DNA of 40,770 nucleotides from Escherichia phage mellemsur, in sequence record MN850570.1; one strand, written 5' to 3'. A program made the translations under genes and the position numbers. The notes under the pieces were generated by a model, which was given only the letters and a program-made list of their open reading frames with translations, had not been told where the DNA came from and did no database searches. The number at the start of each line of letters is the position of its first letter. The stretch's first letter is position 1. Of this stretch, positions 666 to 39,705 are shown one piece after another.

Positions 666-896
666 TCACTCGACCAGCTCGAAGCCATCGCCAAGCTGGG
701 TTACAACGGTGTCGCCTGCATCGTCATCTACCCACAGCTCGTTGGGCAGGCAGACTTCCAGACCATCCGGGTCAACCTCACCCAGCTCAGGAAGACGTGC
801 TGCATACAGCTCACCGATGGTGCAGTCACGAGCACAGAACTTGCTATGCACTGACTTATGCACGCCAGTGTAGCGAACGGTTACTTCTTTAGCCAT
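666..896 (-). CDS. small acidic early protein (paralog of 900..1145)
   Basis: 76 aa, strongly acidic; shares RD-x-TIG-x-xY-xA-xL-xE-xGE-x-x-PDG and C-terminal (L/I)VE with the adjacent gene. Confidence 0.55.
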   Translation of the reverse strand: MAKEVTVRYTGVHKSVHSKFCARDCTIGELYAARLPELGEVDPDGLEVCLPNELWVDDDAGDTVVTQLGDGFELVE

Positions 897-899
897 GAG

Positions 900-1145
900 T
901 TACTCCACGATTTCAATGGTGTGGCCAACGTGTGCGGCAGTGAATGCGAAGCACTCGTCACCCACATCGTCAACGAAGAAGATACCCTGTTCGTCAGTTG
1001 TGTAGCTGCCGTCAGGAAGTTCTTCACCATCCTCAACCAGCAGTGCGTCATACTCTTTGCCGATGGTGGTGTCACGTACTGCGCCAGAGAAATGCTCAGG
1101 CAGGGAAGTGTGACCGATGATGCGAATCAGAATTGAACGTGCCAT
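900..1145 (-). CDS. small acidic early protein (paralog of 666..896)
   Basis: Start moved to ATG (MARSIL...) with GAGGA Shine-Dalgarno; about 81 aa, strongly acidic; motif shared with neighbour. Confidence 0.55.
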   Translation of the reverse strand: MARSILIRIIGHTSLPEHFSGAVRDTTIGKEYDALLVEDGEELPDGSYTTDEQGIFFVDDVGDECFAFTAAHVGHTIEIVE

Positions 1146-32571: not shown

Positions 32572-33471
32572 TTACAGACTCGGCAGGCCGAAGTCAGCAT
32601 CGCCAGTCACGTCCGGCTCAGGCTTGGATGCTGCCGACTTGTCAGCCGCGCCAGCCGTTGCCAGCTCCTGCACTTCCTGCTTAACCTCAGCCACTTCCTC
32701 CGGCTGGCCCACGTCGCCCAGCTCAGGCAGCTCAGCGATTGCCGAGCCAGCACCAGCGCCGTTCAGCAGCAGGTCAAGCGGAGAGCCGGGGAACTCAGGA
32801 GATTCCAGCAGCTTGTCCTGAATCCAGTTCTTGGATTTGCCATCGTCGTTCTTGCCTTCGATGTACAGGGATTCCCAGTCCTCTTTGGTCGGACGGTTCC
32901 ACAGGAACAGCTTGAACAGCGTCTCGTCCTCAACCTCCGGCACCGGGTACGGCTGGTCAGTCACCGGGTCAACCGCGAGCATGATGTTCTCAAGGTCGAT
33001 GTTGGCGTACACCTTCTTGTTCTCACCCTCGCCCGATTCGTTGTGGATAATCGGAACAATGAAGGTGTGGTTCAGAAGCTGCGCGAAGTGCTTCGCAGTC
33101 TTGTCCGGGTTCATACGCTTGAACAGTTTGTAAGCGCCGGACTTGCTGTTCAGGTCTTTCTTCACAGCGATGAACTGCGTGCGCACCTTGCCCGGCACCA
33201 TCTTACCATTGACAACTTCATGGTAAGTCTCGCCGTTCTTGGCCTTGCCCCACAGTGCGAACTGGAGGAAGAACTTATTGACAGGCGGTTTGTCCGGTGC
33301 CTGCTTGGTCACGCTCGGCCCCACTTCAATGTAGCCAACCAGTCGCGCCAGTGCCTTACCTTCCGGCAGCAGCTTACCACCACCGGACGTGGCTTCGTTA
33401 AAGTCAAGTTCTTCCTCGTCAACATACTGTTCGACGATGGAGTTCATGCGGTTCAATACAGATGCGGTCAT
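32572..33471 (-). CDS. hypothetical protein with acidic C-terminal tail (possible DNA-replication accessory / ssDNA-binding)
   Basis: 299 aa immediately downstream of DNA polymerase; acidic C-terminus ending ...DADFGLPSL; function speculative. Confidence 0.45.
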   Translation of the reverse strand: MTASVLNRMNSIVEQYVDEEELDFNEATSGGGKLLPEGKALARLVGYIEVGPSVTKQAPDKPPVNKFFLQFALWGKAKNGETYHEVVNGKMVPGKVRTQFIAVKKDLNSKSGAYKLFKRMNPDKTAKHFAQLLNHTFIVPIIHNESGEGENKKVYANIDLENIMLAVDPVTDQPYPVPEVEDETLFKLFLWNRPTKEDWESLYIEGKNDDGKSKNWIQDKLLESPEFPGSPLDLLLNGAGAGSAIAELPELGDVGQPEEVAEVKQEVQELATAGAADKSAASKPEPDVTGDADFGLPSL

Positions 33472-35933
33472 AATGCGATACCCTTACTCGTCAGGAATTG
33501 TCTCTTAAACTCCAGCACTTCATCGGCTGTCGTCTCTACGTGGTGCTTCTCGTACATGCTTGGCCCTGCTTCCACCTCTGCCGGGAACGGCACTGTCAGG
33601 TTATACTCTGGCCATACGTGGTTATAGTATTCCGGGATGCTCTCCATGATTGCCTTGAGTCCAACGAAGAACTCGTGAGGGCAGTCAGGTGCAATGTCGA
33701 AATAGAATGCGTCATGCACTTGGTTGATGGGAACCACACGCCCACCAAAGAAGTCGTTCGATAGCAGCCAGCGGAACAGCAGGCCACCGATTCCCTGTAC
33801 CCAAAATGCGGTCTCACCCTGAATCGGGTAGTTACGCATCTGAGTTGGTTTGTATTCCATCAGGTGAGCACGCGCCGCCTTGTTCCATTTCTCGTACTGA
33901 CGGAATGAATAACAAGTTCCACCCGGCGACCGGAAGTGACCACGGCGATACACCTGCCATCTTCCGTTCTCGTCCTGCTCCTTGAACACATTGCTCTGTC
34001 CACTTTTCTCCACGGCTGGGAAGATAACCGAGTCGAACCATTCTTCAACTTCCGGGAACAGACCCTTCTCGTTGTCGATGAACGCTTGAGCTTCTTCCTC
34101 AGAGCAACCAGTCGAGTACGCAATGCCTCGCGCTGTTGCACCATACTGATATGAGAACGCCTTCGGCTTAATGTCAGTACGCATCTGACTATATCGTGCA
34201 TGGTCAGGATGGGATTCATCCTTGCACTTCTTAAGCACGTCCTCGTATGGCTCGTTGAGCTGAGCTGACAGACGCATACAGTGCATGTCGATACCGTCGA
34301 GCAATGCACGAATCAGGTTCTTATCCTTGCTGAACCCGGCCAGCCCCACCACTTCCAGTGCCGAGTAGTCAGCCTCAACGATGCGGCCACCTTCACCAAA
34401 GCGGGAGGTGAACATCTGCTTAACTTTACTCGTGCCTTTACGTGGCAAGTTCTGACTGTTAGGTCGCGCCGATGATAGGCGCGTCGTCTCCGTCGCGGTC
34501 ATGTTGATGGTGTGGTGTACGATACTGTCCGGCTGGATGAACTGCATCATCCCCGACTGGCCAGTCACGTTCCCTTCTTCATCGAACGTCTCGCTCAGGT
34601 AGTAAGTGCCGAGGTCTTTCTGTGCCTTGGCTCGGTCGGCAATCTCCACCACGCCGGGAATCTTACGCGCTGCCAGAATGTCCAGCACCTCACCCGCCGT
34701 ACTGAATACCGGACTGCCATCGGCAAGCCTGCGCTTACCAACCCAGTCACCCGTGCGCCGCAGGTATTCGCCCGGTCGCTTCGGGTCTTCCCATTCGAGG
34801 TTGTCTGCAATCTCCTTCGCTCGTTTATCCTGCACACGCAGGAGGCCCGGCATTCGGAACAGCACCTCACCCCACTTGGTATCCACTTCATCCGTTGCCA
34901 GCTTCTCAAACTTGGGCGCACCCTTGTTCTTCCCGCTGGTGTAGATGGTCTGGTGTACCTTCTCAACCGGGTCATACCATAGCCCGGTCTCGGCATCCCA
35001 CTCGCACTCGTTGGTATGCTTGACCCACTTGTCCTTGCCACGCTTGAACAGTGGTGCATCCACCTTGACGTAAATGAGATTGCCATCCCCATCCCGGCGC
35101 TCGACTCGCGCCTTGTACTTCATCACGCCGCCGAACACGAACGCACTCATGTGGTAAGCTGACGTGAACTTGAACTGGTCACGCGCTTCCTGTGGCATGT
35201 CGGCTGGCAGGTAACTCAGCAGCGTATCAGTCAGCCCACTGATTGCATCTTGCAACTCACGGCGGTTGCGCTCGGCAACCTCGCGGTCAACGTGCAGACC
35301 AGCGTGCATCATGTACGCCCACATGAGCATACCTTCGAACCGGGTCAGTGCCATTGGCAACATGCCCTGCTTCGTCAGCTCAGCCCACTGACCAACGAAC
35401 AGCTTGGTCGTGTTCTCGATATCGCCGGACGGCCCGGACAGATATTCGCTCAGCAGCTCAGGGTCAATCTGGCTGGTCAGGTATCCCGACTCCCACATTG
35501 CCTTGACTGCATCCACCTTGTGAGTACCACCATACTTCGGTGCTGTCTCGTTCAAGGATGGGTACTGGGATTGCTGATGCGTCAGCAGGTACTCAGCATA
35601 CGCGGTACAGAATACACGGCCACCTCGTTTGAGGAAGGCAATGAACTCGTCACCGTAATGCTCGAACCACCAGCTCAATTCATACGGCGCGTTGTGAGCT
35701 ACCAGAATGTTCGTGTCAGGATGCAGGTGCAGACTCTTGTTCTGCAACCAGTCCTCACGAGAACTGTACCGATACTCCTCGCGCTCGTAGAATACCCAGC
35801 CATCCTTGGTCAGCACACAGTCACGCTGGCCCTGCATAACCACATAGTTATCCGGGCAGCGCGGCGATGCCAGCTCCCCATACCACTCATGGTTCTCAGT
35901 CTCAACGTCGATTACCTGTGCTCTTATTGCCAT
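33468..35933 (-). CDS. DNA polymerase, family A
   Basis: 821 aa; DYSALEV (motif A), K-x-x-F-x-YQYG (motif B), QVHDA (motif C). Confidence 0.9.
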   Translation of the reverse strand: MAIRAQVIDVETENHEWYGELASPRCPDNYVVMQGQRDCVLTKDGWVFYEREEYRYSSREDWLQNKSLHLHPDTNILVAHNAPYELSWWFEHYGDEFIAFLKRGGRVFCTAYAEYLLTHQQSQYPSLNETAPKYGGTHKVDAVKAMWESGYLTSQIDPELLSEYLSGPSGDIENTTKLFVGQWAELTKQGMLPMALTRFEGMLMWAYMMHAGLHVDREVAERNRRELQDAISGLTDTLLSYLPADMPQEARDQFKFTSAYHMSAFVFGGVMKYKARVERRDGDGNLIYVKVDAPLFKRGKDKWVKHTNECEWDAETGLWYDPVEKVHQTIYTSGKNKGAPKFEKLATDEVDTKWGEVLFRMPGLLRVQDKRAKEIADNLEWEDPKRPGEYLRRTGDWVGKRRLADGSPVFSTAGEVLDILAARKIPGVVEIADRAKAQKDLGTYYLSETFDEEGNVTGQSGMMQFIQPDSIVHHTINMTATETTRLSSARPNSQNLPRKGTSKVKQMFTSRFGEGGRIVEADYSALEVVGLAGFSKDKNLIRALLDGIDMHCMRLSAQLNEPYEDVLKKCKDESHPDHARYSQMRTDIKPKAFSYQYGATARGIAYSTGCSEEEAQAFIDNEKGLFPEVEEWFDSVIFPAVEKSGQSNVFKEQDENGRWQVYRRGHFRSPGGTCYSFRQYEKWNKAARAHLMEYKPTQMRNYPIQGETAFWVQGIGGLLFRWLLSNDFFGGRVVPINQVHDAFYFDIAPDCPHEFFVGLKAIMESIPEYYNHVWPEYNLTVPFPAEVEAGPSMYEKHHVETTADEVLEFKRQFLTSKGIAL

Positions 35934-35943
35934 TCATCCCCCG

Positions 35944-36627
35944 CTATGCTGTGCCACCCAAATGGTCTGGCATACGATTGACGTATGCTTCGATGCGCTC
36001 GCGGTGTGTCTCGTGCTTCTCCAGCATGTAGGCCACACGACTCAGGCTGGCATCCGGTCGGCAGACACGGAGAGTCAGCAGGTCGTCGTAGCTTTCAACC
36101 AGACTGGCCAGCGCCGGATACCACTGCACGTCCTCGGCTGTTAGCTTCGGCTCGTACGGGTACGCCATGAACTCACCGGGGTCACGGCTGTACTGCCCGG
36201 AGTATCGCGGGATACTGGACGGGAAGTAGAACTGGTTCAGGTTGAAGTCGAACTCGCTCAGCACCTGTGACCAGCAGCCACATTTACTAATGATGATGTC
36301 AACCGGGCCGAGCTTGAACACACCGTACAGACGGGAACCGAAGTCGCCGCCCTCGGCTGCGTCGTGGTAGCTTGGCATGTACTCATACGGCAGGTTGTGC
36401 TGCTTGGCGTACGCTTCGAGGTTGGTGTCCAACCATTCGAGTCTGCCGACCACACGGCTTACATCCCCACCCCAACCAAAGACCACGATGTCATAGTCCT
36501 TCGGCTCAACACCCAGCGCTGTATCCCTTGCCCCTCCCCCGGCAACCACAAAGTTCAGCTCATGTGATTGCAGCAGACGGCAGATGTCCTCTGCCCATAC
36601 GCGCTTGACTTCTGCATTACTTATCAT
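35944..36627 (-). CDS. Pol-beta-superfamily nucleotidyltransferase, CCA-adding-enzyme/poly(A)-polymerase head-domain-like
   Basis: FVVAGGGARDTALGVEPKDYDIVV matches GG-x-x-RD-x-x-LG...KD-x-D-x-VV signature of class II tRNA nucleotidyltransferases; only 227 aa. Confidence 0.6.
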   Translation of the reverse strand: MISNAEVKRVWAEDICRLLQSHELNFVVAGGGARDTALGVEPKDYDIVVFGWGGDVSRVVGRLEWLDTNLEAYAKQHNLPYEYMPSYHDAAEGGDFGSRLYGVFKLGPVDIIISKCGCWSQVLSEFDFNLNQFYFPSSIPRYSGQYSRDPGEFMAYPYEPKLTAEDVQWYPALASLVESYDDLLTLRVCRPDASLSRVAYMLEKHETHRERIEAYVNRMPDHLGGTA

Positions 36628-36808
36628 GCTTCTGTTTCCCCTTGCGATAAGTGAAGTTCACCACTGCCACCACATCAGCAGGCGGCACATTGAAACGTTC
36701 GGCCAGCGCCTCGGCACCACGGAACGCATCACCCTTCCGGTACTGCGCCCGGATGGTTGCTTGCTCACGTTGGTTTAAGGGTGCCGCTCGATACGTGCGT
36801 TCTTCCAT
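36617..36808 (-). CDS. hypothetical small basic protein
   Basis: 63-aa ORF; overlaps NTase start. Confidence 0.4.
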   Translation of the reverse strand: MEERTYRAAPLNQREQATIRAQYRKGDAFRGAEALAERFNVPPADVVAVVNFTYRKGKQKHDK

Positions 36809-36928
36809 ACTGCTTTACTCCACACTTTTCACATTCGTAAATCACCAGCGTCTTGCCAGTGGCCTTGCCCTTGGTCTGCTCAGCCAGCAGACTGCCGCCG
36901 CAAGAGCAACGGCGATAGCTGCGGCCCC

Positions 36929-37291
36929 TCACCACTTACTCGGCACGCTGCCGGGCAGGTAGCTGGTCGTCGGCTTACGCTCAACGTACTGGTTGTACAC
37001 TGACATGGCATCACACGCTGCTTGGTACAGACGCTCAGCCTCAGCGTAGCTCCAGTCCTCGGCAGTCGCCTCCGGTTCAGGCGTGGCTGCTACATGCGGT
37101 GCGTCACCAATCAGCGCCCACGACGCATGGCGTGCAGTCCACGAGCCACTGATACCAGAACCACGCGCACCATCGTCGCGGTCAATGCTCACGTACTTGT
37201 CGTTGATGTCAACCACAGTACCCTTCGCACCGTAATGCACACTGCGTGCATCAATGTTTACTACTCGGTCGCCTACCTTCAAATGGCTCAT
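36929..37291 (-). CDS. hypothetical protein with KOW/SH3-like N-terminal motif
   Basis: 120 aa; KVGDRVVNIDARSVHYGAKGTVV resembles KOW motif; overlaps helicase stop. Confidence 0.45.
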   Translation of the reverse strand: MSHLKVGDRVVNIDARSVHYGAKGTVVDINDKYVSIDRDDGARGSGISGSWTARHASWALIGDAPHVAATPEPEATAEDWSYAEAERLYQAACDAMSVYNQYVERKPTTSYLPGSVPSKW

Positions 37292-38556
37292 TACATGTCC
37301 TCGTATTGGCAGCGGTCAGCAAAGAAGTGTACCTGCGACCGCACGTTGCTTGGACGCCCAGCAATCTGGCGTTTGTTCTTCGGCGTACTGACACCGCGCC
37401 GCGCCGCCAGTGATGGGTCATCCACACTGCCGAGCATCACGATAACATCAGTCGCCCCTTGGATACCAGTCTTGGAATCCTTGAGCGCATCCAGTGCCGG
37501 GAACATATCATCGGCACCATCAGCAGATACCTGAACCGTAGCCAGTGACACGAAGTTGTGTCGCACTGCCAGCTCACGTACCTCCTGCCATAGCTGCTCA
37601 ACCTGACTCGCCTTGTTGCTCGACGGGTCAGACACAGACAGCTTGAAGTTGGCAAGCATATCCCACACCACGATGCACGGGTTCATCGCTTCGATAACCT
37701 GCTCAGCTTTTGCCAGCGTCGCGCCGTGCATATCCTTCACACGAATCACATTGGCTGGCGCACCCAGTGCCTTGGCGTACGCAGCGTGCAGCTTGCTCCT
37801 GTCCTCACCCAGCTCTTTCAGTTCCGGGAGCGTACAGTTGAGCGCCGCCTGATAGATGCGCGGGATGATGTTGATGCCCTGCCCTTCGTTGTTGAACCAC
37901 AGGATTGGTCTGCCCGGATACAGCTTCGCCGCTGTCGCCGCCATTCGCGTAAGGTTAAACGCGATGAAGCTGGTCTTCCCACTGTCAGGTCGGGCAGCGA
38001 TTGCAACGGAGTCGCCGGGAAGCAGTACGCGTACGCTATCTTGCAGACACATGAGACCGAACTTAAAACCTTGGTCATCATCAGTGCGATTAATAATGTC
38101 AACCACATCGTCATCGACGTAATCGGTAACTGATGATTGGCCCCGACTGCGGCGTGCGCCCTCAGCCAGACGGCCAAGCTCATAGATAATATCCAGTTCT
38201 TCACCATTGTCGTACCTCTGCATCAGCAGGTTCGCACGGCCAGCGGTGTCCAACTCTACGAGCTGGTCAAGGATGCCTTCCTTCTGTTCCTTCGTGGGCT
38301 GATACTCTTTGAGCTGAGCACACAGGGAATCAAAGGCCGCCATCTGTTCAGGCGTGCTGCCTGTCTTTAAACGAACGTGCGTACCCAGTGTCTCAATGTC
38401 AATGAAGTCACTGTCCGGGAACGCGTCAAAGTATGAGCCGTAAGCACGCAGCATATAGCCCGTGGTCTGGCTCATGGTATCTTCCGGGATGGCGTGTCGC
38501 AGGGAGTTATACTTCCCGCGCTCGCGCATCACCGTTAACAACAGCTTGTCAAGCAC
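37291..38556 (-). CDS. replicative DNA helicase (DnaB/gp4-like)
   Basis: 421 aa; Walker A AIAARPDSGKTSF; adjacent to putative primase. Confidence 0.7.
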   Translation of the reverse strand: MLDKLLLTVMRERGKYNSLRHAIPEDTMSQTTGYMLRAYGSYFDAFPDSDFIDIETLGTHVRLKTGSTPEQMAAFDSLCAQLKEYQPTKEQKEGILDQLVELDTAGRANLLMQRYDNGEELDIIYELGRLAEGARRSRGQSSVTDYVDDDVVDIINRTDDDQGFKFGLMCLQDSVRVLLPGDSVAIAARPDSGKTSFIAFNLTRMAATAAKLYPGRPILWFNNEGQGINIIPRIYQAALNCTLPELKELGEDRSKLHAAYAKALGAPANVIRVKDMHGATLAKAEQVIEAMNPCIVVWDMLANFKLSVSDPSSNKASQVEQLWQEVRELAVRHNFVSLATVQVSADGADDMFPALDALKDSKTGIQGATDVIVMLGSVDDPSLAARRGVSTPKNKRQIAGRPSNVRSQVHFFADRCQYEDM

Positions 38557-38557
38557 A

Positions 38558-39268
38558 TCACTCTCCTACGATTTGCACACGCCCAACGACACGCAGCTCC
38601 CGGCGTATGCGCTGAGCACTTGGGTGGTGGCAGATAACCACGAGGTTGTATCCATACGCCAGCGTCACACTGACCAGCGCCTGCAACGTTGAGTCGTCCA
38701 CGTTGGGAACGAACGCGCAGTTGCCGCCGTCGCGTACCTGCTGGAGATACTCGTCCACCTCACCATAAATCCAGAGGCAGTTGGTCTCAGCATTACCACG
38801 AGGGCTGACCTTCATTGCCAAGCTGTGCTTGTGCGGCGAGCGCCACGGGATGAACTGCCTGCCCGTGTAGTCCAGACCACAGTAACTGCCCGTGTCGTCC
38901 GGCAGATACAGCCTGCCATACGTTGGGCTTGCAGTCAGGATAGACAGGTGCGGCATCAGGTTCTCCCGCTCCAGCACTGGCAGTAGCAAGCGCGGCTGCT
39001 TGGCAATCACCTCAGTGATAGGCACCACATCCGTTGGCACCTTCACTTGCACCTCCGCTGGCGGCACGTACACAGCATGGGTTAAGTCATGCTTGCGGCT
39101 ATACCCACAGCGGTGGCACTTGCACCAGATGTAATCCGGCGCACGACCGTACTCGAAGTTGGTCTTGTTGAATGACCGCGAGCAACTGTGAAACGTCCTT
39201 CGCTTTTGTCCTACTGGCAGACGCTTCGCCAGCTCCGGCCACTCGTCGTTGCTCACTGATTTCATCAT
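38558..39268 (-). CDS. putative DNA primase (zinc-ribbon)
   Basis: 236 aa; Cys4 pattern HSCSRSF...CKCHRCGY near N-terminus; position directly upstream of helicase. Confidence 0.45.
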   Translation of the reverse strand: MMKSVSNDEWPELAKRLPVGQKRRTFHSCSRSFNKTNFEYGRAPDYIWCKCHRCGYSRKHDLTHAVYVPPAEVQVKVPTDVVPITEVIAKQPRLLLPVLERENLMPHLSILTASPTYGRLYLPDDTGSYCGLDYTGRQFIPWRSPHKHSLAMKVSPRGNAETNCLWIYGEVDEYLQQVRDGGNCAFVPNVDDSTLQALVSVTLAYGYNLVVICHHPSAQRIRRELRVVGRVQIVGE

Positions 39269-39705
39269 TCGTTATCCCAGTCCGGTATGTACTGAATCTT
39301 CTTCTTCATCTTCACGCTGGCTACAACTTGCAGCACACGGACAGTACCTCCGTTCCGCTCTGCCAAACGTTCAGCTTCGTCACGCGCCTCGCGCTCAGTG
39401 ATGTGCTCAACCTTCGGCGGCGCATTACTGCCTTCGACCAAGCACATGAACCGACCACGCTTCTCTGCTGGCGTGCTGACCAGACTGGTGTTGTCCTCCA
39501 GCCAATCAGATTTGTAGTGGCTGATATCCGGCTGCGCATTGAGGCGCTCACCAATCCAGCTCACGATGTAACGAGTCTCCCCGCTACGTTCCCACGCTCG
39601 GCGGTCAGGGTTAACCCACGCGATGATACCCAGCTTACCTGACCGGGTGCCAGTGCCATCGTCGCCTACGATTTCATCCCCGACTTTATACTTTGGCTTC
39701 ACCAT
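39265..39705 (-). CDS. hypothetical protein
   Basis: 146-aa ORF; N-terminal KVGDEIV segment. Confidence 0.45.
   Translation of the reverse strand: MVKPKYKVGDEIVGDDGTGTRSGKLGIIAWVNPDRRAWERSGETRYIVSWIGERLNAQPDISHYKSDWLEDNTSLVSTPAEKRGRFMCLVEGSNAPPKVEHITEREARDEAERLAERNGGTVRVLQVVASVKMKKKIQYIPDWDNE

What the first reader, a model, noticed from the sequence alone, without database searches (positions are those of the whole stretch)
36765..36935. Possible unannotated small zinc-ribbon ORF overlapping a predicted gene
In the gap between the 120-aa and 63-aa genes, a minus-strand frame with GTG start encodes about 56 aa with C-x-C...C-x2-C (..RRCSCGG...ECEKCG..) and common codons. It overlaps the 5' end of the 63-aa ORF in another frame, so one of the two predictions may be wrong.
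Basis: seen in the sequence. Interest (0 to 1): 0.25.

Follow-up and report, generated by a model that had tools for sequence, protein, structure and literature searches.

The report
Real small zinc-ribbon phage gene
The "gap" between two small genes of this T7-like (Bonnellvirus) coliphage holds a real, conserved, usually unannotated gene for a 56-residue basic zinc-ribbon protein, and the 63-residue gene it overlaps by 44 bases is also real; this is an ordinary annotation gap.

Summary
The window is a Bonnellvirus (Autographiviridae), 98% identical to phages aldrigsur and altidsur. The ORF is intact, with the same length and no indels, in all 16 relatives examined. Variable sites fall mainly on its third codon positions (20 of 33, p=0.001). 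pN/pS is 0.21 in this frame against at least 1.07 in the other two frames. Codon usage fits the phage. Lidtsur has ATG at the start position. The outgroup LIMEzero keeps a 57-aa homolog with the same start/stop overlaps. The 63-aa gene is equally conserved (pN/pS 0.18), and it survives in LF82-23, where the zinc-ribbon gene is cleanly absent. So both genes are real and neither prediction is wrong. Three GenBank records already annotate the ORF as a hypothetical protein. It belongs to no Pfam, PHROG or NCBIfam family and has no relatives outside these phages. Its function is unknown. My best inference is a dispensable, basic (pI 9.8) nucleic-acid- or polymerase-binding accessory protein, translated by coupling to the upstream gene.

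The parts
36765..36935 (-). Zinc-ribbon gene: 56 codons plus a TGA stop
   Evidence: The ORF is listed. It is intact in 16 Bonnellvirus sequences, 14 of them distinct at the DNA level. pN/pS is 0.21 in this frame only. Codon usage fits the phage.
36929..36935 (-). Start/stop junction GTGGTGA. The GTG start at 36935..36933 (alternative GTG at 36932..36930) overlaps the TGA stop of the 120-aa gene. This is the inferred site of termination-reinitiation coupling.
   Evidence: Read from the sequence. Lidtsur has ATGGTAA at the same place, so the first position is the start there. LIMEzero has a GTGA overlap. The only Shine-Dalgarno-like element upstream is a weak GAG.
36822..36908 (-). Putative zinc-binding core, C10-x-C12 ... 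C35-x2-C38. The Cys codons are at 36908-06, 36902-00, 36833-31 and 36824-22.
   Evidence: All four Cys residues, and G13 and G39, are invariant in the Bonnellvirus sequences. The AF2 model shows four beta strands. The best small-protein structural analogues are TFIIS, Elf1 and Rpb9 zinc ribbons, at weak scores.
36765..36808 (-). 44-nt out-of-frame overlap. It encodes the unconserved C-terminal tail of the zinc-ribbon protein (residues 43-56) and the conserved N-terminus of the 63-aa protein.
   Evidence: The tail differs completely between the window and LIMEzero (THVSSGTLKPT against RKAVPHLTSAS), while the N-terminus of the 63-aa protein keeps Y..PL...EQ.
36818..36821 (-). GGAG Shine-Dalgarno sequence of the 63-aa gene, 9 nt before its ATG. 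It lies inside the zinc-ribbon codons (Gly39 GGA plus the following G).
   Evidence: Read from the sequence. It is conserved in most relatives and in LIMEzero; Lidtsur reads GGGG here.
36617..36808 (-). 63-aa gene. It is real and of unknown function.
   Evidence: pN/pS is 0.18, and 33 of 56 variable sites are at the third codon position. It matches phrog_31596 at E 1e-37. It is retained in LF82-23.
36929..37291 (-). Upstream 120-aa gene. Termination of its translation is inferred to feed initiation of the zinc-ribbon gene.
   Evidence: Its C-terminal half matches phrog_19629. Its N-terminus gives weak SH3-like and ProQ-C-like matches, both below the curated cut-offs.

Best explanation
The segment 36935..36765 (minus strand) is a real protein-coding gene of the phage's DNA-metabolism block (primase, helicase, 120-aa, this gene, 63-aa, nucleotidyltransferase, DNA polymerase). 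It encodes a 6.1-kDa, strongly basic protein (pI 9.8, net charge about +7.5). Its four invariant cysteines (C-x-C-x22-C-x2-C) most likely hold one zinc ion in a zinc-ribbon fold. That the frame is coding is shown by comparative data. The following points are inferred. (1) Translation starts at the GTG that overlaps the stop of the 120-aa gene and depends on termination-reinitiation coupling, because the upstream Shine-Dalgarno sequence is weak. (2) The last 14 residues are an unconstrained tail, dictated by the overlapping N-terminal codons and ribosome-binding site of the 63-aa gene. (3) The protein is a dispensable accessory factor that binds nucleic acid or a polymerase; I put that function at about 0.35, and it is not demonstrated. 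Most gene callers miss the gene because it is short, starts with GTG, has a weak ribosome-binding site and overlaps the next gene by 44 nt. The confidence value given here refers to the gene being real and translated, not to the proposed function.
For: The ORF and motif are present. The frame is intact, with the same length and no indels or stops, in 16 Bonnellvirus sequences, 14 of them distinct. In the 127 nt not shared with the 63-aa gene, 20 of 33 variable columns are at its third codon positions (binomial p=0.0012). There pN/pS is 0.21, against 1.37 and 1.07 in the other frames. J8-65 is 76.6% identical in DNA over the 1.1-kb neighbourhood but 90% identical in this protein. Codon usage fits only this frame. 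Lidtsur has ATG at the start position. LIMEzero (genus Waewaevirus) keeps an unannotated 57-aa homolog with 21 of 41 core residues identical, a GTGA start/stop overlap and the same 44-nt downstream overlap. This segment is among the least variable in the neighbourhood (nucleotide diversity 0.09). Every other junction in the block is an overlap or a 10-nt gap, so a 120-nt non-coding gap would be the odd one out. There is no promoter, terminator, Rfam family or unusual RNA fold. The antisense ORF is broken by stops in 6 relatives. Three independent records annotate the ORF: ROV85 gp43, Lidtsur HOV34_gp24 and Kc261 QQM15412.1. The AF2 model is four-stranded, and its closest small analogues are the zinc ribbons of TFIIS, Elf1, Rpb9 and A12.2.
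Confidence: 0.85

Rival explanations
1. The 120-nt segment is a non-coding spacer or a regulatory DNA/RNA element (promoter, terminator, structured RNA, replication signal). The open frame would then be a by-product of nucleotide-level conservation.
For: The segment has the lowest nucleotide diversity nearby, and its synonymous divergence is about half that of the 63-aa gene. A local hairpin covers the CxC codons. The LIMEzero comparison shows no third-position relaxation. Chance ORFs of this length are common in this G+C-rich window.
Against: Variation falls on the third positions of one frame only (p=0.0012). pN/pS is 0.21 in that frame and above 1 in the others. Codon usage fits that frame. 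There is no sigma-70-like promoter, terminator or Rfam match, and the fold z-score is -0.8. The ORF boundaries, the start/stop overlaps and the Cys residues are retained in LIMEzero, where blastn finds no similarity over this segment.
Confidence: 0.07
2. Only one of the two overlapping ORFs is a gene. The 63-aa call would be wrong, as the RefSeq Lidtsur and Kc261 annotations imply, and the zinc-ribbon ORF would be the true gene.
For: NC_048177 (Lidtsur) and MW250275 (Kc261) annotate the zinc-ribbon ORF and omit the 63-aa ORF.
Against: The 63-aa frame is intact in all relatives. Its pN/pS is 0.18, and 33 of 56 variable sites are at the third position (p=8e-5). It has a GGAG Shine-Dalgarno sequence 9 nt before a conserved ATG. 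It is conserved in LIMEzero at 63% amino-acid identity with clear third-position relaxation. It is retained with a stronger ribosome-binding site in LF82-23. It matches phrog_31596.
Confidence: 0.03
3. The zinc-ribbon frame is not translated on its own. It would be translated only as a fusion, by programmed frameshifting from the 120-aa gene (-1 frame) or into the 63-aa gene (+1 frame).
For: The three ORFs overlap in different frames. The sequence GAGTAAGTGG at the junction is shared with LIMEzero.
Against: In the window a TAA stop lies immediately before the GTG in the zinc-ribbon frame, so no upstream fusion is possible. There is no slippery heptamer at either overlap, and the overlap sequences are not conserved between Bonnellvirus and LIMEzero. 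Lidtsur has an ATG start of its own.
Confidence: 0.03
4. The plus-strand 103-aa ORF (36651..36962), antisense to the segment, is the real gene.
For: It is the longest ORF across the segment in the window.
Against: It is interrupted by stops in J8-65, smaasur, Lidtsur, usur, forsur and glasur. The variable sites fall on its first codon positions. All credible genes in this part of the window are on the minus strand.
Confidence: 0.01

Closest known systems
Annotated hypothetical proteins of related phages: Lidtsur HOV34_gp24 (YP_009821622.1, UniProt A0A4D6DZ23), Kosakonia virus Kc261 QQM15412.1 and Pantoea phage ROV85 gp43 (WXX18593.1)
   Same: They are orthologues. They are 80-87% identical over 55-56 aa, sit in the same position between the 120-aa-type gene and the 63-aa-type gene, and have the same Cys pattern.
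   Different: There is no substantive difference. None has a known function. Kc261 is annotated from the second GTG. The Lidtsur and Kc261 records lack the 63-aa gene.
Zinc ribbons of the transcription machinery (TFIIS C-terminal domain 1tfi, Elf1 6ir9_M, Rpb9 1qyp, A12.2 4c2m_I)
   Different: There is no sequence relationship, and the scores are below significance. The first knuckle here is C-x-C, not C-x2-C. The TFIIS acidic hairpin motif is absent. This is a resemblance of fold only, and it does not establish membership.
Small accessory genes between the primase/helicase and DNA polymerase genes of T7 (genes 4.1-4.7; comparison from general knowledge of the T7 map, not tested here)
   Same: They occupy the same kind of genomic niche: short, tightly packed and often overlapping ORFs of the middle (DNA-metabolism) class. 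They are non-essential and vary between relatives.
   Different: No homology was detected. I know of no zinc-ribbon motif in the T7 genes.
Pfam RNHCP domain (PF12647)
   Same: This is the best Pfam match: residues 8-47 against profile positions 42-81 of 90. It covers both Cys knuckles.
   Different: The score is 18.6 bits against a cut-off of 24, with E=0.0019. Only the ribbon part of the profile is matched. The RNHCP domain itself has no known function.

Membership tests
Bona fide protein-coding gene | The reading frame is kept open, without indels, in diverged relatives. | tested here: met
   16 Bonnellvirus sequences (14 distinct) all have 56 codons. LIMEzero has 57 codons.
Bona fide protein-coding gene | Purifying selection is specific to that frame. 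| tested here: met
   pN/pS is 0.21 against 1.37 and 1.07 in the other frames. 20 of 33 variable sites are at the third position, p=0.0012. The distant LIMEzero comparison gives no third-position signal.
Bona fide protein-coding gene | There is a start codon with a ribosome-binding signal. | tested here: inconclusive
   The start is GTG (ATG in Lidtsur) and overlaps the upstream stop. Only a weak GAG lies upstream. Coupling is plausible but untested.
Bona fide protein-coding gene | There is direct evidence of translation. | not testable with these tools
   No ribosome profiling or proteomics data are available, and no paper on it was found.
Cys4 zinc ribbon | There are two Cys pairs (knuckles) about 15-25 residues apart, invariant among orthologues. 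| tested here: met
   C10-x-C12-x22-C35-x2-C38 is invariant in all Bonnellvirus sequences. The first knuckle is an atypical C-x-C. Four relatives (Lidtsur, usur, forsur, glasur) and the metagenome locus L020 add C15.
Cys4 zinc ribbon | All four ligands are kept in the most distant homolog. | tested here: not met
   LIMEzero has C-P-T-C ... C-T-E-D. The fourth Cys is replaced by Asp.
Cys4 zinc ribbon | The fold consists of beta-hairpin knuckles plus a three-stranded sheet. | tested here: inconclusive
Cys4 zinc ribbon | The protein binds zinc in stoichiometric amount. | not testable with these tools
   This needs purified protein and metal analysis.
Pfam RNHCP (PF12647) | The score reaches the curated gathering threshold. 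| tested here: not met
   18.6 bits against a cut-off of 24.
WRKY-GCM1 zinc finger | There is a significant match to the WRKY domain, including the C-x4-5-C-x22-23-H-x-H ligands and the WRKYGQK strand. | tested here: not met
   There is only an RSYRRC/RSYYRC resemblance, with E 0.48 against PDB sequences. Pfam WRKY gives no hit at E<=10. There is no WRKYGQK strand and no His pair.
Stand-alone primase zinc-binding domain (T7 gp4 ZBD supplied in trans) | The phage primase lacks its own zinc-binding domain. | tested here: not met
   The 236-aa primase (38558..39268) has its own H-x-C ... C-x-C-x2-C motif near the N-terminus.
P2 Ogr/Delta zinc-finger late activators (lead from memory: C-x2-C-x22-C-x4-C) | There is a match to the Pfam Ogr_Delta profile. 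| tested here: not met
   This family does not appear among the Pfam matches at E<=10. Only the 22-residue spacer is similar.

The most novel reading that the evidence does not exclude
The protein could be an orphan phage effector that uses a TFIIS/Rpb9-like zinc ribbon to dock on the host RNA polymerase, the phage RNA polymerase or another nucleic-acid enzyme. It might shut off host transcription or counter a defence system. It would be needed only in some hosts, which would explain its clean loss in LF82-23. The unusually low synonymous divergence would then reflect a second function overlaid on the RNA.
Probability: 0.1. Interest if true: 0.5.

Novelty: new member of a known kind. Interest (0 to 1): 0.2.

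Why it matters
The main value is for annotation. Most Bonnellvirus records and the LIMEzero reference genome lack this gene. Two records, one of them RefSeq, have it but lack the equally real 63-aa gene. Only ROV85 has both. The locus is a clean, small example of a conserved 44-nt two-frame overlap with apparent translational coupling. It shows how gene callers drop one partner of an overlapping pair. The protein is an orphan: it has no family and no relatives outside two phage genera. It is dispensable in at least one natural isolate. It is a reasonable candidate for small-protein functional screens, but nothing here points to a new mechanism.

Tried and rejected
- Family searches (Pfam, PHROGs, NCBIfam) found nothing for the 56-aa protein. 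The matches to RNHCP, Ribosomal_L44 and DUF1922 are all below threshold.
- The word-indexed search of 5.8 billion proteins returned only the Lidtsur and Kc261 orthologues.
- The full HMMER profile search of 1.84 billion representatives returned only the family itself plus two spurious repeat proteins, P0003 and P0004.
- IMG/VR gave 4 loci (at least three are phages already in hand), the metagenome scan added 2 more Bonnellvirus-type loci, and 185,579 prokaryotic genomes gave none.
- The PDB sequence search gave only an insignificant WRKY resemblance.
- A synteny search anchored on the nucleotidyltransferase reached ECBP5 and Vibrio phage JSF38. I looked for divergent Cys4 ORFs upstream of that gene and found none.
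- Promoter/terminator scanning, Rfam and RNA folding found nothing.
- The idea of a primase zinc-binding domain supplied in trans is rejected, because the primase has its own motif.
- Frameshift fusion is rejected, because a TAA lies immediately upstream in frame and there are no slippery sites.
- The antisense ORF is rejected.
- The pN/pS value I computed for the 120-aa gene is invalid, because that gene has indels among the relatives. I do not use it.

Full report
**Observation.**
The minus strand of the window carries a tightly packed gene block:
- primase, 236 aa, 39268..38558
- DnaB-like helicase, 421 aa, 38556..37291
- a 120-aa gene, 37291..36929
- a 63-aa gene, 36808..36617
- a nucleotidyltransferase, 227 aa, 36627..35944
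- DNA polymerase, 821 aa, 35933..33468

Its GTG overlaps the TGA stop of the 120-aa gene (GTGGTGA). Its last 44 nt overlap the start of the 63-aa gene, whose frame is +1 relative to it. Every other junction in the block is an overlap or a 10-nt gap. Without this ORF, the 120-nt space would be the only sizeable gap.

**Identity of the window.**
The region is 98% identical to Escherichia phages aldrigsur and altidsur. It is 75-86% identical to 17 other records of the genus Bonnellvirus (Autographiviridae), which infect Escherichia, Enterobacter, Cronobacter, Kosakonia and Pantoea. Pantoea phage LIMEzero (genus Waewaevirus) is the only more distant phage with recognisable homologs of the small genes.

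**Is the frame coding?**
I extracted the segment from 12 annotated relatives, one IMG/VR contig and two metagenome contigs.
- All of them have a 56-codon ORF with no indel and no stop. 14 of the 16 DNA sequences are distinct.
- In the 127 nt that the ORF does not share with the 63-aa gene, 33 columns vary. They fall 6, 7 and 20 on codon positions 1, 2 and 3 of the zinc-ribbon frame (binomial p=0.0012).
- By the Nei-Gojobori method, pN/pS is 0.21 in this frame, and 1.37 and 1.07 in the two alternative frames. The private part of the 63-aa gene gives 0.18.
- J8-65 is 76.6% identical in DNA over the neighbourhood, yet 90% identical in this protein.
- Codon usage scores +0.23 per codon in this frame and -0.66 and -0.51 in the others. 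In-frame windows of the phage's long genes give +0.41 +/- 0.16, and off-frame windows give -0.67 +/- 0.27.
- In Lidtsur the first GTG is an ATG (ATGGTAA), which fixes the start there.
- LIMEzero has an unannotated 57-codon ORF in the same gap (L004 750..923). Its GTG overlaps the upstream TGA, 21 of 41 core residues are identical, and it has the same 44-nt overlap with the downstream gene.
- The segment is among the least variable in the neighbourhood (nucleotide diversity 0.09, against 0.15-0.26 in the 120-aa gene).
- Three GenBank records already annotate the ORF as a hypothetical protein: ROV85 gp43, RefSeq Lidtsur HOV34_gp24 and Kc261 QQM15412.1.

**Alternatives for the segment.**
- There is no sigma-70-like promoter, intrinsic terminator or Rfam family, and the RNA folds no better than shuffled sequence (z = -0.8).
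- The 103-aa antisense ORF is broken by stops in six relatives.
- A frameshift fusion with the 120-aa gene is excluded in the window by a TAA directly before the GTG. No slippery site is present at either overlap.

**Is the 63-aa gene wrong?**
No.
- It is intact everywhere. 33 of its 56 variable sites are at third codon positions (p=8e-5).
- It matches phrog_31596.
- It has a GGAG 9 nt before a conserved ATG, and no other in-frame start codon before codon 41.
- It is 63% identical to LIMEzero ORF20, with clear third-position relaxation.
- Phage LF82-23 gives a natural test. There, the stop of the 120-aa gene is followed by 11 nt that carry a canonical AAGGAG, and then by the ATG of the 63-aa gene. 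The zinc-ribbon gene is absent as a unit.

This shows two things. The 63-aa gene stands on its own, and the zinc-ribbon gene is dispensable. Because the outgroup LIMEzero has the zinc-ribbon gene, loss in LF82-23 is the simplest reading. Inside the overlap, the N-terminus of the 63-aa protein is conserved out to LIMEzero, but the zinc-ribbon tail is not (THVSSGTLKPT against RKAVPHLTSAS). The tail therefore looks like a passenger of the overlap.

**What the protein is.**
- C10, C12, C35 and C38, and the knuckle glycines G13 and G39, are invariant in Bonnellvirus.
- The spacing is C-x-C-x22-C-x2-C. Five sequences (Lidtsur, usur, forsur, glasur and metagenome locus L020) add C15.
- LIMEzero has C-x2-C and then C-x2-D, so the fourth ligand is not universal.
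- The protein is 6.1 kDa, with pI 9.8 and net charge about +7.5.
- AlphaFold2, run on a three-sequence alignment, gives a moderate model (pLDDT 67) with four strands.

The zinc-ribbon fold is therefore likely from the motif and compatible with the model, but it is not proven.

**Relatives and function.**
- No Pfam, PHROG or NCBIfam family is reached. The best match is RNHCP, at 18.6 bits against a cut-off of 24.
- Two very large protein searches return only the Lidtsur and Kc261 orthologues, plus two spurious repeat proteins.
- Scans of IMG/VR, metagenomes and 185,579 prokaryotic genomes add only more Bonnellvirus-type copies.
- The equivalent regions of ECBP5 and Vibrio phage JSF38, reached through the nucleotidyltransferase, contain no Cys4 ORF.
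- The primase has its own zinc motif, so this protein is not a detached primase zinc-binding domain.
- The papers found on these phages say nothing about this gene.

My committed reading is this. The gene is a dispensable accessory gene of the middle (DNA-metabolism) class. It is translated by coupling to the 120-aa gene. Its basic zinc-ribbon product binds nucleic acid or a polymerase. I put the existence of the gene at about 0.85-0.9 and the stated function at about 0.35.

**Unexplained.**
Synonymous divergence in the zinc-ribbon-only segment is half that of the 63-aa gene (pS 0.22 against 0.43). The LIMEzero comparison shows no third-position relaxation. Some nucleotide-level constraint may overlie the coding constraint. 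Candidates are the embedded ribosome-binding site of the 63-aa gene, a coupling signal, or a small hairpin over the CxC codons. With invariant arms, covariation cannot be tested.

**Verdict.**
This is an ordinary annotation gap in a small phage group, and orthologues are already deposited as hypothetical proteins. Interest is low.

Noticed in passing
L009 (NC_048177 Lidtsur) 883..1074 and L010 (MW250275 Kc261) 883..1074: These two records, one of them RefSeq, annotate the zinc-ribbon ORF but omit the intact, conserved 63-aa gene. Most other annotated records do the reverse. Only ROV85 annotates both.
   Followed up: yes
L004 (NC_015585 LIMEzero) 750..923: An unannotated 57-aa homolog of the zinc-ribbon gene lies between ORF19 and ORF20. 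The fourth Cys is replaced by Asp, and the first knuckle is C-x2-C.
   Followed up: yes
L005 / L021 (PV660458 LF82-23); window 36809..36928 and 38556..38558: LF82-23 lacks the zinc-ribbon gene entirely: an 11-nt spacer with AAGGAG takes its place. It also carries an extra 'endonuclease' gene between primase and helicase, which abut directly in the window.
   Followed up: partly
window 36812..36931: This segment has among the lowest nucleotide diversity in the stretch from the helicase 3' end to the nucleotidyltransferase (0.09). Its synonymous divergence is half that of the 63-aa gene. A 7-bp hairpin, CCGUUGC-UCUU-GCGGCGG, covers the CxC codons, but the overall fold z-score is only -0.8.
   Followed up: partly
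window 36932..36941; L004 about 752..761: The 10-mer GAGTAAGTGG at the junction of the 120-aa gene and the zinc-ribbon gene is shared with LIMEzero but is read in different frames. S-K-W is the C-terminus of the upstream protein in Bonnellvirus and the N-terminus of the zinc-ribbon protein in LIMEzero. This may be a conserved reinitiation signal or a past shift of the gene boundary.
   Followed up: no
window 35944..36627 (-): The 227-aa 'nucleotidyltransferase' has no Pfam hit. It gives a weak match to the head of PcnB and CCA-adding enzymes (E 0.001). Homologs occur in 264 Autographiviridae records, next to the DNA polymerase or primase/helicase gene in the six loci I inspected.
   Followed up: partly
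window 36929..37291 (-): The N-terminus of the 120-aa protein gives matches below threshold to the Xrn1 SH3-like domain (E 6e-5) and to the Phage_ProQ_C_like domain (E 0.049). This hints at a small RNA- or nucleic-acid-binding domain. Its length varies among relatives (113-120 aa).
   Followed up: no
window 38558..39268 (-): The primase has no Pfam match but carries an N-terminal H-x-C ... C-x-C-x2-C zinc motif (FHSCSRSF...CKCHRCG). The 146-aa ORF upstream of it (39265..39705) has no family.
   Followed up: no
window 36152..36271: A second pocket of very low nucleotide diversity (0.05-0.085) lies inside the nucleotidyltransferase gene, flanked by much more variable stretches.
   Followed up: no
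P0003 (representative protein library): This is a 257-aa 'protein' made of seven LQWGRTHLSAET repeats, probably a translated repeat array. It matched the zinc-ribbon tail QYGRTHVSS spuriously.
   Followed up: no
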